DNA of 64,000 bases from Somniosus microcephalus. Lineage: Eukaryota. The stretch lies in contig CM126222.1 in the NCBI GenBank assembly GCA_052327205.1, positions 53,506,001 to 53,570,000 of the forward strand, given 5' to 3'. The notes under the pieces are model-generated. The model saw only the letters and a program-made list of their open reading frames with translations. It made no database searches and had not been told where the DNA came from. Positions 1-59,900 of this stretch are shown one piece after another. Numbering within the stretch: position 1 is the first letter of the stretch; every line of letters starts with the position of its first letter. The position numbers and the translations under genes were made by a program.

Positions 1-577
1 TGTGCACCAGTCGCTGAAGGTAAGCATGCAGGTGCAGCAGGCGGTTAAGAAGGCAAATGGTATGTTGGTCTTCGTAGCAAGAGGGTTCGAGTACAGGAAC
101 AAGGATGTCTTGCTGCAGTTGTACAGGGCCTTGGTGAGACCGCACCTTGAGTATTGTGTGCAGTTTTGGTTGCCTTATCTGAGGAAGGATGTTCTTGCCA
201 TGGAAGGAGTTCAGCGAAGATTCACCAGGCTGATACCTGGGATGGCAGGAATGACGTATGAGGAGAGATTGTGTCGATTGGGCTTATACTCACTGGAGTT
301 TAGAAGATTGAGAGGGGATCTCATCGAAACATATAAAATTCTGACAGGCCTGGACAGACTAGATGCAGGAAGGATGTTCCCGATGGCCGGGGAGTCCAGA
401 ACCAGGGGTCATCGTCTAAGGATAAGGGGTAAGCCATTTAGGACTGAGATGAGGAGGAATTTCTTCACCCAGAGAGTGGTGAACCTGTGGAATTCTCTGC
501 CACAGAGGGCGGTGGAGGCCAGTTCATTAAATATATTCAAGAAGGAGTTGGATATATTTCTTAAGGCTAAAGGGATC
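1..577 (+). mobile_element. CR1 LINE, 3' part of ORF2 (RT C-terminal region), interrupted by another CR1
   Basis: ORF 2..589 has CR1 motifs LYRALVRPHLEYCVQFW, LEFRRLRGDLIE, TRGH, RNFFTQRVVNLWNSLP. Sequence breaks at AAAGGGATC (~577) and resumes at 2551 (ATCAAGGGATATGGGGAG). Confidence 0.92.
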
Positions 578-2550
578 ATCAGAACATAAGAACATTAGAA
601 ATAGGAGCAGGAGTAGGCCAATCGGCCCCTCGAGCCTGCTCCACCATTCAATAAGATCATGGCTGATCTGATCCTAACCTCAAATCTTCTATCACTCTGC
701 ATCCACCCGAACCCATGTGATCTCCCGGGAGAGGCGAAAAACCAAATAATGACCCAATGGCCAATTTGGGAGAAAAAAATCTGGGAAATTCCTCTCCGAC
801 CCATCTAGGCGATCGAAATTCTTCCAGGAGATCACTCTGTCCCTATATTTTCTACAGTACTTACCTTCTGTAAAGGCGATCTCCACCCCAGCCAGGAACA
901 GGAATAAAACCATCTCCTGAAATCTAACACAGAATTAGAACACAGTAGGAGCAGAACCAGGCTACACGGCCCCTGGGCCCACTCCACTACCCACAGGGCC
1001 ATGACCATTCCGAACCTAGACTCATGTCCAATTTCCTGCCCGCTCCCCGTAACCCTTAATTCCCTTTACTTCTAGGAAACTATCTATTTCTGTTTTAAAT
1101 TTATTTAATGATGTAGCTTCCACAGCTTTCTGGGGCAGCAAATTCCACAAACCTACCACCCTCTGAGTGAAGAAGTTTCTCCTCATCTCAGTTTTGAAAG
1201 AGCAGCCCCTTATTCTAAGATTATGCCCCCAGTTCTAGTTTCACCCTTCATTGGGAACATCCTCACCGCATCCACCCGATCAAGCCCCTTCACAATCTTA
1301 TATGTTTCAATAAGATCCCTCTCATTCTTCTGAACTCCAATGAGTAGAGTCCCAATCTACTCAACCTCTCCTCATATGACCACCCCCTCATCCCCGGGAT
1401 TAACCGAGTGAACCTTCTTTGTACTGAATCGAGAGCAAGTATGTCTTTTCTTAAGTATGGACACCAAAACTGTATGCAGTATTCCAGGTGCGGTCTCACC
1501 AATACCTTGTTCAACTGCAGCAATACCTCCCTGTTTTTATATTCCATCCCCCTAGCAATAAAAGCCAACATTCCATTGGCCTTCTTGATCACTTGCTGCA
1601 CCTGCATACTAACTTTTTGAGTTTCGTGCACCAGGACCCCCAGATCCCTTTGTACTCCAGTACTTTCCAGTTTCTTGCCATTAAGATAATAACTTGCTCT
1701 ATGATTTTTCCTGCCAAAGTGCATAACCTCACACTTTCCAGTATTGTATTCCATCTGCCAAATCTCTGCCCACTTACTTAGCCTGTCTATGTCCCTTTGC
1801 AGGTTTTTTATGTCCTCCTCACTCACTACTTTCTGTCCCATCTTTGTATCATCTGCAAACTTTGATATGTTACACTCGGTCCCCTCCTCCAAATCGTTAA
1901 TATAGATTGTAAAGAGTTGGGGACCCAGCACTGACCCCTGCGGAACACCACTAGTTACTGGTTGCCAATCTGAGAACGAACCATTTATCCCAACTCTCTG
2001 CTTTCTGTTAGAGAGCCAATCCTCCACCCACGCCAGAATATTACCCCAATCCCGTGATTTTTTATCTTGAGCAATAATCTTTTGTGTGGCACCTTGTCAA
2101 ATGCCTTTTGGAAGTCTAAATACACTACGTCCACTGGTTCCCCTTTATCCACCCTGTATGTTACATCCTCAAAAAACTCAAGCAAATTTGTCAAACGTGA
2201 CTTCCCCTTCATGAAACCATGCTGAGTTTGTCCTAATAAATTATGTTTATCCAAATGTCCCGTTACTGTCTCCTTAATAATGGACTCTAACATTTTACCA
2301 ACCACAGATGTTAGGCTAACAGGTCTATAGTTTCCAGCCTTCTGCCTACTACCCTTTTTAAATAAGGGTGTTACATTAGCAGTTTTCCAATCTGCCGGGA
2401 CCTTTGCTGAGTCCAGTGAGTTTTGGAAAATTATTACCAATGCATCCACAATCCCTACCGCCACTTCCCTCAAGACCCTAGGATGCAAGCCATCAGGTCC
2501 AGGGGATTTATCCGCCTTGAGTCCCATTATTTTACCAAGTACCACTTCAT
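578..2550 (-). mobile_element. 5'-truncated CR1 LINE (frameshifted RT) with an unusually long, double-tailed 3' UTR
   Basis: ORFs 1985..2545 (NYRPVSLTS, YLDFQKAFDKV) and 1290..2027 (GVPQGSVLGP, KFADDT). The 3' microsatellite tail AGAACATAAGAACATT is at ~581. It sits inside the + strand CR1. Confidence 0.92.
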
Positions 2551-2681
2551 ATCAAGGGATATGGGGAGAAGGCAGGGACAGGGTACTGAATTTGGATGAT
2601 CAGCCATGATCTCATTGAATGGCGGAGCAGGCTCGAGGGGCCGAATGGCCTACTCCTGCTCCTATCTTCTATGTTTCTATG
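2551..2681 (+). mobile_element. 3' tail of the CR1 that begins at position 1
   Basis: GATCAGCCATGATC...AATGGCGGAGCAGGCTCGAGGGGCCGAATGGCCTACTCCTGCTCCT followed by TTCTATGTTTCTATG repeats. Confidence 0.85.
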
Positions 2682-56434: not shown

Positions 56435-56915
56435 GTTTACTGTAAATAAAAGTCAATGTAGGAAACTTTACCTTCGCTGCAAACTCATCAGTGCACTTGT
56501 GCTCACATAGGAGGGTGAGGAAAGTGAATGGAAGTAGGAGAAGTTACTACACTGTATCCAGCGACAGCGTCAGCGTCACATGCTCACAGTAGTGGTATAG
56601 CCCAGGTATCATAGGTCTTCCCTACTTTAACCCATCAATATATCTCAGCTTCGAACTCAATCTCAACCTCATACGGTTGGCCATATTCACACAAAATGAT
56701 GATGTTCCTCAAATCCCACCCCACTTTTTCCAGTTCAACCTATTTCAGGGGCAGCTACTCACTTGCTCACTCATAGTGTAGGGTTTCCTAAATCCAGGCA
56801 ACAATACCTCAGGGTGAACATAAGAACATAAGAACATAAGAAGTAGGAGCAGGAGTAGGCCAGATGGCCCCTCGGGCCTGCTCCACCATTCAATAGGATC
56901 ATGGCTGATCCGAAT

Positions 56916-59900
56916 CTAGACTGACGTCCACTTCCCTGCCCGCTCCCCGTAACCCCTAATTCCCTTATCTGCTAGGAAACTGTCTATCTCCGTTTTAAAT
57001 TTATTTAATGTTGCAGCTTCCACAGCTCTCTGGGGTAGCAAATTCCATAGATTTACTACCCTCTGAGTGAAGAAGTTTCTCCTCATCTCAGTTTTGAAAG
57101 GGCAGCCCTTTATTCTAAGATTATGCCCCTTAGTTCTAGTCTCACCCATCAGTGGAAACATCCTCACCGCATCCACCCAATCAAGCCCCCTCACAATCTT
57201 ATATGTTTCGATAAGATTGCCTCTCATTCTTCTGAACTCCAATGAGTAGAGGCCCAACCTACTCAACCTTTCCTCATACGTCAACCCCCTCATCTCCGGA
57301 ATCAACCGAGTGAACCTTCTCTGAACCGCCTCGAGAGCAAGTATATCTTTTTTTAAATATGGAAACCAAAACTGCACGCAGTATTCCAGGTGTGGCCTCA
57401 CCAATGCCCTGTATAACTGCAGCAAGACTTCCCTGTTTTTATACTCCATCCCCCTTGCAATAAAAGCCAAGATTCCATTGGCCTTCCTGATCACCTGCTG
57501 CACCTGCATACTAACTTTTTGAGTTTCATGCACCAGGACCCCCAGATCCCTTTGTAATGTAGCACTTTGCAGTTTCTCTCCATTTAGATAATAACTTGCT
57601 CTTTGATTTTTTCTGCCAAAGTGCATAACCTCACACTTTCCAATATTATATTCCATCTGCCAAATCTCTGCCCACTCACTTAACCTGTCTATGACCTTTT
57701 GCAGGTTTTTAATGTCCTCCTCACTCACTGCTTTCCCTCCCATCTTTGTATCGTCGGCAAACTTGGATATGTTGCACTTGGTCCCTTCCTCCAAATCGTT
57801 AATATAGATTGTAAAGAGTTGGGGTCCCAGCACTGACCGCTGCGGAACACCACTAGTTACTGATTGCCAGCCCGAGAACGAACCATTTATCCCAACTCTT
57901 TGTTTTCTGTTAGATCGCCAATCTTCCACCCATGCCAGTATATTACCCCCAATCCCATGATTTTTTTATCTTGATCAGTAATCTTTTGTGTGGAACCTTG
58001 TCAAATGCCTTTTGGAAGTCCAAATACACTACATCCACTGGTTCCCCTTTATCCACCCTGTATGTTACGTCCTCAAAGAATTCGAGCAAATTTGTCAAAC
58101 ATGACATCCCCTTCATAAAACCATGCTGACTCTGTCCTATTAAATTATGTTTATCCAAATGCTCTGTTATTGTTTCCTTAATAATGGACTCCAACATTTT
58201 GCCAACCACAGATGTTAGGCTAACTGGTCTATAGTTTCCAGCTTTTTGTCTACTTCCCTTCTTAAATAAGGGCGTTACATTAGCAGTTTTCCAATCTGCC
58301 GGGACCTTTCCTGAGTCCAGGGAGTTTTGGAAAATAATCACCAATGCATCCACAATCCCTACCGCCACTTCTCTCAAGACCCTAGGATGTAGGCCATCAG
58401 GTCCGGGGGATTTATCCGCCTTAAGTCCCATTTTTTTACCGAGTACCATCTCCTTAGTGATTTTAATCGTGTTTAACTCCTCCGCCGCCGCCCCGCCCCC
58501 CCCCCCCCCCGCCATTGCCCCCTGTTTGTCCAGTGTTGGGATATTTTTAGTGTCCTCTACTGTAAAGACTGATACAAAATATTTGTTCAGTGTCTTTGCC
58601 ATCTCCATGTTCCCCACCACTAGTTTCCCGGTCTCATCCTCTAAGGGACCAACATTCACTTTAGCCACCCTTTTTCTTTTTATATAGCTGTAGAAACTCT
58701 TGCTATCTGTTTTTATATTTTTTGCTAGTTTACTTTCATAATCTATCTTCCCTTTCTTAATTAATCTTTTAGTTATTGTTTGCTGGCTTTTAAATGCTTC
58801 CCAATCTTCTATCCTCCCACTAGATTTGGTTACTTTATATGCCCTTGTTTTCAGTCGGATACTATCCTTTATTACTTTACTAAGCCACGGATGGCTGTCT
58901 TTTCTCTTACTCCCCTTTTTCCTCAGTGGAATATATTTCTCTTGAAAGATGTGAAATATCTCCTTGAATGTAGACCACTGCTCTTGTACCGTCTTACACT
59001 TTAATCTGTTTTCCCAGTCCACTTTAGTCAATTCTACTCTCATACCTTCATAGTCTCCTTTATTTAAGCTCAGTTCGCTGGTTTGAGATCCAACTCTCTC
59101 ACCCTCAAACTGAATTTGGAATTCAACCATATTATGAGCACTCATTCCAAGGGGATCCTTTACTAGGACATTTTTTATTAATCCTGTCTCATTACACAGG
59201 ACCAGATCTAAGATTGCCTGCCCCTGGTTGGTTCAGTTACATACTTCTCAAGGAACCTGTCCCTAATACACTCTATGAACTCTTCCTCAAGGCTGCCATG
59301 CCCAATTTGATTAGTCCAGTCAATATGAAAGTTAAAATCCCCCATGATTATAGCTGTTCCCAACTATTTCCTGATTTATACTCCGACCAACAGAGTTGCA
59401 ACTGTTAGGAGGCCTATAGACTACGCCCACTAGTGACTTTTTCCCCTTATTATTCCTTATCTCCACCCAAACTGTTTCACTATCCTGATCCTTTGACCCA
59501 ATATCATTTCTGACTATTGCAGTGATTCCATCCTTGATTAACATAGCAACCCCACCTCCCTTTCCTTCCTGTCTGTCCTTCCTAATTGTCAAATACCCTT
59601 GTATGTTTAGTTCCCAGTCATGATCATCTTGCAGCCATGTTTCTGTAATGGCCACCAGATCATACCCATGTGTAGTTATTTGTACCGTCAACTCGTCTAT
59701 TTTGTTACGAATGCAGCGTGCATTCAGATAAAGAACTTTCAAATATGTTTTCTGACAATTTATTCCTGCTTTTACCCCTTTTACTACTTTACCTTTATCA
59801 TTATACATTCTGTCCCTTCCTGACACGCTCTGGTTTTTAATTCCCCCACTGCTACCTTGCTCTATTGCCTTCTCCGCTGTCATTTTTATTTTTCGCTCTC

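What the first reader, a model, noticed from the sequence alone, without database searches (positions are those of the whole stretch)
688..930. Structured RNA cassette carried in a CR1 3' UTR
Seen: on the LINE sense (-) strand, 717-835 reads GUGAUCUCCUG...GAUCGCCUAGAUGGGUC-GGAGAGG-AAUUU...AAAUU-GG...GGUUUUUCG-CCUCUCC-CGGGAGAUCAC. This gives an 11-bp closing stem (its U-G wobble forms only on the sense strand), a 7-bp GGAGAGG/CCUCUCC helix, an AAUUU/AAAUU helix and a side hairpin, i.e. a multi-way junction. A consensus splice donor (AAG|GTAAGT, ~859-867) lies just upstream. The close relative at 56817 lacks the cassette. From unverified memory, a similar GGAAGGAATTTT...AATTGG...GGTTTTTCGCCTTCC motif occurs in amphibian and reptile CR1 3' UTRs. 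Inference: a mobile, conserved RNA module of unknown function (stability, export, translation or ribozyme) shuttled between LINE families.
Basis: partly seen in the sequence, partly recalled or inferred. Interest (0 to 1): 0.75.

Follow-up and report, generated by a model that had tools for sequence, protein, structure and literature searches.

The report
Ancient folded RNA passed between retrotransposons
A 120-base predicted RNA fold in the tail of a shark-type jumping gene was taken from an older jumping-gene lineage, has a same-shaped counterpart in DNA that is likely from a land vertebrate, and likely shields its RNA from decay by gripping the poly(A) tail, although a younger and more numerous offshoot has deleted it.

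Summary
717-835(-) is the 3' UTR core of an old CR1 lineage (696 tail matches). A HER1-type CR1 captured that lineage's ORF2 end plus cassette behind its own tail and gained a new tail (9,930 matches). AAG|GTAAGT is the donor's last codon and stop codon. The supported fold is a three-way junction: closing stem, side hairpin and a rod with U-rich internal loops; the AAUUU/AAAUU helix has probability 0.00. A model built from shark copies alone ranks 5 of 6 vertebrate-host metagenome loci above 22 motif-matched controls only when structure is scored. A third, non-coding carrier keeps the cassette far better than its flanks, 110-130 nt before AATAAA. Best reading: an ENE-like poly(A) triple-helix stabiliser (about 0.45, untested). 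Against: the youngest offshoot deleted it and has 21,367 matches, only three U's sit on one loop strand, and the LINE has no poly(A) signal behind it. No Rfam match; no description found in 9 literature searches.

The parts
579..2550 (-). 5'-truncated HER1-type CR1 LINE copy that carries the cassette; nested in another CR1 on the + strand, with a 4-bp duplication ATCA at 575-578 and 2551-2554
   Evidence: RVT_1 in both ORF2 frames; reads continue from 578 into the host element (loose ends). 'HER1-type CR1' is my recall of tail and ORF2 motifs; the name HER1 as shark LINE is in a table of PMC3747384
1022..2550 (-). ORF2 3' part (reverse transcriptase), frameshifted in this copy; stop TGA at 1024-1022
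929..1021 (-). first, decayed copy of the host LINE's own 3' tail
   Evidence: aligns with the single intact tail of the 56817 relative and of 15 of 15 parent-family loci
836..928 (-). remnant of the donor CR1's ORF2 C-terminus, its stop codon and 26 nt of UTR; 7-nt microhomology with tail 1 at 928-922; about 65 nt of the longer form deleted between 903 and 902
859..867 (-). AAG|GTAAGT: end of the donor ORF2 plus stop codon (TAA at 863-861; TAG in 10 of 17 old-donor matches), also a consensus 5' splice-site 9-mer
   Evidence: no joint or depth step here in RNA reads
717..835 (-). structured cassette: P1 835-824/728-717; P2 815-811/801-797; P3 796-791/734-729; U-rich 6x7 internal loop 790-785/741-735; P4 784-779/747-742; second U-rich loop 778-771/752-748; P5 770-766/757-753; apical loop 765-758
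693..716 (-). remaining donor 3' UTR spacer up to the right junction
579..692 (-). second, intact HER1-type 3' tail ending in the microsatellite; the functional 3' end of all sampled copies
56817..56940 (-). 3' end of the cassette-less parent family (single tail)
   Evidence: 3,801 exact matches of its junction motif

Best explanation
The cassette is the 3' UTR core of an old CR1 lineage, captured by a younger HER1-type CR1, and it is predicted to fold into a three-way junction whose U-lined internal loop likely grips the poly(A) tail as a U-A-U triple helix and would thereby slow decay of the intronless RNA, as ENE elements do. Shown: donor origin, capture of ORF2 end plus cassette between two tails, conservation of the fold with changed sequence, transcription, later erosion and deletion. 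Inferred: the junctions arose by microhomology-guided insertion or template switching; shark copies would act as a double-domain element (two U loops split by a 6-bp helix), the putative amniote copies as single-domain; the poly(A) would come from a signal in flanking DNA. Untested: triple-helix formation and any effect on RNA level. In this HER1 family the element is dispensable and seems to have lost constraint.
For: Both strands of the P3/P4 loop are U tracts between G-C pairs, with the same 6x7 size in shark and putative amniote copies while the flanking pairs change on both sides (2 of 6 in P3, 5 of 6 in P4; alignments). Second loop U5-6 by U5-6 in the long form (3' strand UUUUUU in 22 of 24 parsed of 29). 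In the amniote-type loci a tandem copy about 170 nt downstream keeps only the U-loop hairpin, with about 7 and 5-6 U's, and its stems are more alike (88%, 92%) than its apex (79%) or the spacer (80%). The third carrier keeps the cassette at 105 of 111 letters against 82 of 107 in flanks (p 1.6e-4) while dead donor copies show no such contrast (15.6% vs 12.2% mismatch), and has AATAAA 110-130 nt downstream followed by a GU-rich stretch in 29 of 29 distinct copies (copies of one duplication, not independent). Long chimera vs donor: 106 of 112 in cassette, 156 of 184 in flanks (p 0.013). ENE definition and double-domain form: PMC7583470 passages; ENE raises retrotransposon RNA and mobility in a plant: PMC12501189 passages.
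Against: A derivative lacking the whole cassette is nested in the cassette clade, is the least diverged group (1.0% vs 1.5-2.1%) and has 21,367 motif matches against 9,930 (different motifs, so only a rough ratio). The conserved loop's 5' strand begins AA and has only 3 U's in sharks, 4 in the amniote-type loci. The short form has UCUUU in the upper loop (12 of 22, 19 of 27) and its contrast to flanks is not significant (p 0.16). No AATAAA within 220 nt downstream in 23 of 23 donor and 55 of 56 chimera copies, none close in the six amniote-type loci, and the LINE ends in a microsatellite, not poly(A). The side hairpin with its bulged G and the AUUGGC apical loop are conserved and not explained by an ENE. 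Covariation rests on essentially two lineages and a structure-fitted alignment.
Confidence: 0.45

Rival explanations
1. The fold is a protein-binding or compact tertiary element (export, localisation or translation signal, like retroelement transport elements). The U loop is a hinge, and the conserved GCC of the side hairpin may pair with GGC of the apical loop.
For: Side hairpin and apical loop are conserved in sequence in both lineages; 3 to 5 base pairs are possible between them by inspection; location about 26 nt after the donor stop codon.
Against: The tandem amniote-type copy drops both features and keeps the U-loop hairpin; no Rfam family at E up to 10 or 1; the loop-loop pairing shows no double-sided change in my set.
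Confidence: 0.25
2. The fold is part of the template-recognition signal of the donor lineage's own ORF2 protein and has been a passenger in every other carrier.
For: It lies 60-90 nt upstream of the donor tail; CR1 3' UTRs are proposed RT recognition sites (PMC4316615 passage); deletion is tolerated once a HER1 tail is present.
Against: It is selectively preserved in the third carrier while the donor spacer and tail decay, and it is kept and duplicated in loci with no detectable ORF2 remnant (tblastn).
Confidence: 0.15
3. The cassette has no present function in any shark carrier; it is a once-functional or merely GC/U-biased segment hitchhiking on successful master copies.
For: Erosion then loss along long, short and deleted subfamilies; cassette depth is a few per cent of tail depth in RNA reads.
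Against: Shape kept with changed sequence across distant vertebrates; two contrasts to flanks with a neutral control.
Confidence: 0.1
4. The cassette is a self-cleaving ribozyme.
For: Three-way junction of ribozyme size; ribozymes occur in other non-LTR elements (search listing).
Against: No Rfam ribozyme match; no hammerhead or HDV core seen by inspection (cores recalled); no pile-up of read ends (fragmented libraries, weak test); cleavage here would cut off the tail needed for reverse transcription.
Confidence: 0.05

Closest known systems
ENE stability elements: KSHV PAN ENE and the single- and double-domain ENEs of plant, fungal, slime-mould and stickleback retroviral elements (as summarised in PMC7583470 and PMC13541005; Tycowski 2016 itself not held)
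   Same: U-rich internal loop between G-C helices; 3' UTR of an intronless mobile-element RNA; two loops split by a short helix in sharks; lower loop with a bulge-interrupted stem
   Different: Host is a vertebrate non-LTR element without a poly(A) end; embedded in a three-way junction with a conserved side hairpin and apical loop; only 3-4 U's on one strand of the conserved loop; no activity shown
MALAT1/MEN-beta triple helix
   Same: GGAAGG-type lower stem with U tracts on both loop strands (MALAT1 sequence likeness is recall)
   Different: No encoded A-rich tract and no tRNA-like element downstream (ARAGORN 0 of 6 loci); no Rfam match
Evade (Copia93) ENE of Arabidopsis (PMC12501189)
   Same: U-loop fold between ORF and 3' end of a retrotransposon, proposed to raise RNA level and mobility
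   Different: LTR element in a plant; there deletion lowers mobility, whereas here a deleted offshoot amplified more
CR1/HER1 3'-terminal hairpin plus microsatellite (PMC4316615, PMC3747384)
   Same: Structured 3' UTR signal of CR1 elements
   Different: The cassette is a separate, upstream, 120-nt domain; Suh et al. cut this boundary region out of their alignment
Conserved SINE bodies and LINE-derived SINE middles (V, Deu, UCON3, Ceph; PMC7245038, PMC5786205)
   Same: Conserved module exchanged between retroelements by chimera formation
   Different: Comes from a CR1 3' UTR, has no tRNA head, and is not mentioned in the passages read

Membership tests
ENE (poly(A) triple-helix element) | Stem-loop with U-rich internal loop, U's on both strands | tested here: met
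   Predicted fold and covariation; 3+5 U's (shark lower loop), 4+6 (amniote-type), 5-6+5-6 (shark upper loop), about 7+5-6 (tandem copy)
ENE (poly(A) triple-helix element) | G-C pairs next to the loop for A-minor contacts | tested here: met
   GG/CC below and CC/GG above the lower loop in both lineages; upper shark loop has A-U then G-C below
ENE (poly(A) triple-helix element) | Close to the poly(A) site of the transcript | tested here: inconclusive
   AATAAA 110-130 nt downstream in 29 of 29 third-carrier copies; 0 of 23 donor, 1 of 56 chimera copies; transcript ends not mapped
ENE (poly(A) triple-helix element) | Forms U-A-U triples with poly(A) | not testable with these tools
   needs melting, gel shift, probing or structure
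ENE (poly(A) triple-helix element) | Stabilises an intronless reporter RNA | not testable with these tools
   needs reporter assay
MALAT1/MEN-beta type element | Encoded A-rich tract and tRNA-like element downstream | tested here: not met
   No A tract directly after the cassette in shark or amniote-type loci; no tRNA in 6 of 6 amniote-type loci; no Rfam hit
Independent SINE/MITE insertion | Own target-site duplication, tRNA head or terminal inverted repeats, free copies | tested here: not met
   Flanks are contiguous donor CR1 ORF2 and UTR; 30 of 30 top loci lie inside the LINE
Known self-cleaving ribozymes | Match to an Rfam ribozyme model | tested here: not met
CR1-clade non-LTR element (host and donor) | RT-bearing ORF2, 5' truncation, 3' hairpin and microsatellite | tested here: met
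   RVT_1; variable 5' ends; ORF2 C-terminal motifs like those in the Suh supplement. No RT tree against reference clades was built
Functional 5' splice site | Spliced reads leaving at 865/864 | tested here: inconclusive
   None among listed joints or loose ends, no depth step; 55 joints and 1485 loose ends were not shown

The most novel reading that the evidence does not exclude
A poly(A)-gripping triple-helix element arose in CR1 LINEs before sharks and tetrapods split, has been passed between LINE lineages by 3'-end capture, and has been co-opted, even duplicated in tandem, as an RNA stabiliser by non-coding multicopy units in sharks and amniotes: the first ENE family of animal LINEs.
Probability: 0.35. 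Interest if true: 0.8.

Novelty: new variant of a known kind. Interest (0 to 1): 0.6.

Why it matters
ENEs in mobile elements are reported from plants, fungi, a slime mould and stickleback retroviruses (PMC7583470); none from animal LINEs turned up in my searches. CR1 is the dominant LINE of many vertebrates and ends without poly(A), so how its RNA is kept stable is open. A 120-nt fold kept between sharks and tetrapods is directly testable, and this genome holds a natural series (no cassette, intact, eroded, deleted) plus a separate carrier next to a poly(A) signal. Whatever its function, it is a conserved RNA structure absent from Rfam 15. The loss in the most successful offshoot caps the claim: it is not needed for CR1 mobility.

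Tried and rejected
Rfam: window 400-1300 at E up to 10, four chance hits outside the cassette; five loci at E up to 1, one chance hit. Viral contigs: 0 matches with three patterns. First metagenome pattern: 0; the looser one gave 22 loci, 6 true and 16 judged chance. Prokaryote genomes: 6 matches, none above 14.2 bits with the structure model. Tetrapod-type motif patterns in this genome: 0. The metagenome contigs could not be extended, so the carrier there is unidentified; tblastn found no ORF2 remnant in them. Literature: nine searches gave no description of this motif; Tycowski 2016 is not held; file 1 of the Suh supplement could not be searched; Repbase and Dfam were not available and probably hold the sequence unannotated. 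Four look-ups in earlier scan findings returned nothing. Rejected: AAUUU/AAAUU helix; independent SINE/MITE; tail 1 as a working tail (followed by further element sequence in 19 of 20 loci); U1 shielding of the AATAAA near 1105 as the reason for capture (the deleted offshoot lacks the site and thrives). Strand of transcription could not be fixed: the two RNA runs lean opposite ways and the protocol is unknown. Top-hit sets are biased to similar copies, so the 'long' age is a lower bound.

Full report
Setting. The window lies in a 6.4-Gb vertebrate assembly. Its repeats have the tails and ORF2 motifs I recall for the shark CR1 family HER1; the name is in a table of PMC3747384 (passages). The finding sits in a 5'-truncated LINE copy at 579-2550 on the - strand, with RVT_1 in both ORF2 frames, inserted in another CR1 with a 4-bp duplication.

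Observation. The quoted letters, the 11-bp closing stem, the GGAGAGG/CCUCUCC complement, a side hairpin and AAG|GTAAGT at 867-859 are there, and the relative at 56817 lacks the insert. The region folds better than 200 of 200 shuffles. The AAUUU/AAAUU helix has probability 0.00 in 8 of 8 sequences evaluated and costs 5-17 kcal/mol in 7 of 8. Typical family members fold as a three-way junction: closing stem P1, side hairpin P2, and a rod P3 - 6x7 U-rich loop - P4 - second U-rich loop - P5 with an AUUGGC apical loop. The window's copy is a weakened variant in which this rod is 2 kcal/mol above an alternative fold.

Origin. All 30 loci fetched from the 40 scored matches hold the cassette inside the same LINE 3' end. 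A gapped motif has 9,930 matches against 0 for the control. A longer form of the insert reads, across frameshifts, as the C-terminus of a second CR1 ORF2 ending in a stop at the 'splice donor'. That donor lineage exists as old copies with their own tail (696 matches; 20 of 30 fetched reach the cassette; ORF2 end visible in L151, L155, L157; 13-16% diverged). Aligning 51 short, 28 long and 17 donor copies shows contiguous donor sequence from about 928 to 693, a 7-nt microhomology at the left junction, and a fresh HER1 tail at the right. The first tail then decayed. So the cassette came in as part of a CR1 3' fragment, with no duplication or head of its own. The 9-mer is AAGGTAGGT in 10 of 17 donor matches and AAGGTAAGT in 50 of 55 chimera matches; RNA reads show no listed joint or depth step there.

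Fate in this family. The parent without insert has 3,801 motif matches. The decayed-tail motif has 20,686, more than the cassette, so I fetched 20 of its loci chosen from those not listed: 18 had lost the whole cassette and most of the remnant, 1 was the long form, 1 was interrupted. This deletion junction has 21,367 matches. A FastTree tree of 67 ORF2 ends rooted on the parent orders long, short, deleted, with the deleted clade (support 0.97) nested in cassette-bearing copies and least diverged (1.0%, n 25, vs 1.5-2.1%; no formal clade test). The upper U tract went from UUUUUU (22 of 24 parsed long copies) to mostly UCUUU in the short form, and the predicted P3 probability fell from 0.97 to 0.45 to 0.03. 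The cassette is therefore dispensable here and seems to have eroded before it was lost. Earlier constraint is suggested by long versus donor: 106 of 112 identical in the cassette, 156 of 184 in flanks (p 0.013); short versus donor is not significant (p 0.16).

Third carrier. A dispersed and clustered unit of at least 11.5 kb without a long ORF of its own near the cassette (most of 167 matches) holds an old donor fragment. Its cassette is 105 of 111 identical to the donor majority against 82 of 107 in flanks (p 1.6e-4; 12 and 18 copies), keeps 2-4 of 4 CpGs (4 in 7 of 12) where dead donor copies mostly keep 0-2, and dead donor copies show no slower change in the cassette (15.6% vs 12.2%). AATAAA with a GU-rich stretch follows 110-130 nt downstream in 29 of 29 distinct copies, and 28 of 29 fold with P3 closed and the U loop open. 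These copies share one origin; use of the signal was not tested.

Other species. Contigs of coded organism A show high depth over the cassette and the new tail but almost none over 888-945, and B shows donor-like copies at low depth: the cassette is amplified in another arrangement in at least one other species. A metagenome scan gave 22 loci; 6, from two assemblies, are 72-81% alike over up to 1 kb and are vertebrate host DNA (L201 begins with a CR1 3' end that I recall as amniote or bird type). They share P1-P4 and the apical loop with largely different stem letters, and a 12-bp GC rod replaces the shark P4-P5. A covariance model built from 11 shark copies with the rod structure scores 5 of the 6 at 20-32 bits, above all 22 motif-matched controls (at most 15.4; the sixth, L198, 14.6); the same alignment without structure gives them 5-10 bits, no better than controls (up to 12). 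On the fitted alignment of 16 copies, 90% of cells pair and 15 of 32 pairs have a double-sided change; this reflects mainly one shark-amniote contrast and is no significance test. About 170 nt downstream these loci repeat only the U-loop hairpin (5 of 6; L217 is cut off), with stems more conserved than apex and spacer. No ORF2 remnant is detectable in them, so their link to CR1 rests on homology. In the supplement of PMC4316615 (file 2 searched, part 41 read) the trimmed CR1-2_XT of Xenopus retains a 15-nt piece matching the cassette's 3' strand; the authors excluded the ORF2/3' UTR boundary.

Expression. In two RNA runs of a species that holds the stretch, the cassette has summed depth of about 330-450 and 600-1,040, a few per cent of the shared tail; no start or end pile-ups; strand undetermined. 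Reads may come from copies embedded in other transcripts.

Mechanism. What is kept is the helix pattern, a 6x7 loop lined with U's on both strands between G-C pairs, the bulged-G side hairpin and the apical loop. The first two are the defining anatomy of ENEs, which bind poly(A) as U-A-U triples with A-minor contacts and occur as single or double domains in mobile elements of plants, fungi, slime mould and stickleback retroviruses (PMC7583470 passages; PMC13541005 passages); in Arabidopsis Evade such an element raises RNA stability and mobility (PMC12501189 passages). The second U loop in sharks, the tandem U-loop-only copy in the amniote-type loci, and selective retention next to a poly(A) signal in the third carrier all fit. 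I put this at 0.45. It leaves the side hairpin and apical loop unexplained, has few U's on one strand, lacks a nearby poly(A) signal in the LINEs, and gives no visible advantage in this family. Rivals: protein-binding or tertiary element (0.25), donor-specific template signal (0.15), no present function (0.10), ribozyme (0.05).

Known or new. No Rfam 15 match. Nine searches of the held library and passages of PMC7245038 and PMC5786205 gave no description; the library lacks most subscription papers, Tycowski 2016 could not be read, and Repbase/Dfam were not available. LINE chimeras and tail swaps are well known; the new part is the conserved fold, its moves and its possible ENE role. I file it as a new variant of a known kind, ENE membership unproven. 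Interest 0.6.

Noticed in passing
G000:C3:107674690-107686200 (L162+L163), also L164-L167, L093-L150: A dispersed and tandem-clustered unit of at least 11.5 kb, about 95% alike between three loci, many copies near contig ends, with no long ORF of its own near the cassette; could be a multicopy non-coding gene or a large non-autonomous element.
   Followed up: partly
L198, L201, L203, L206, L217, L219: GC-rich multicopy vertebrate-host element over 1 kb long with the full cassette followed by two or three progressively decayed tandem units of about 170 nt; identity unknown.
   Followed up: partly
window 810-808 and 762-760 (- strand): GCC of the side hairpin is complementary to GGC of the apical loop; 3 bp in sharks, up to 5-6 bp in the amniote-type loci; possible loop-loop contact or switch.
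   Followed up: no
window 1100-1109 (- strand): Overlapping ATTAAA/AATAAA inside the ORF2 end of the host LINE, also in the parent family; if used it would cut off the tail.
   Followed up: partly
L245, L246: Deleted-type copies with 4 to about 9 tandem repeats of a 26-nt piece of the tail hairpin, suggesting slippage early in reverse transcription; RNA reads also show back-jumps in the tail.
   Followed up: no
L064, L071, L072, L074, L077; L003, L014, L022, L026; window 575-2554: CR1 copies are often inserted in other HER1-type CR1 copies, several of the long form at what looks like the same site; may be site preference or segmental duplication.
   Followed up: no
run X1 (organism A): One contig joint links 818 to 1032, and depth is high over cassette and tail but not over tail 1, hinting at a related chimera with the cassette close behind ORF2.
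   Followed up: no
L081: A short inverted-repeat element is inserted in the cassette's 3' U tract with a duplicated flank.
   Followed up: no
L181: An old donor copy with the whole cassette and spacer deleted between ORF2 end and tail (single copy seen).
   Followed up: no
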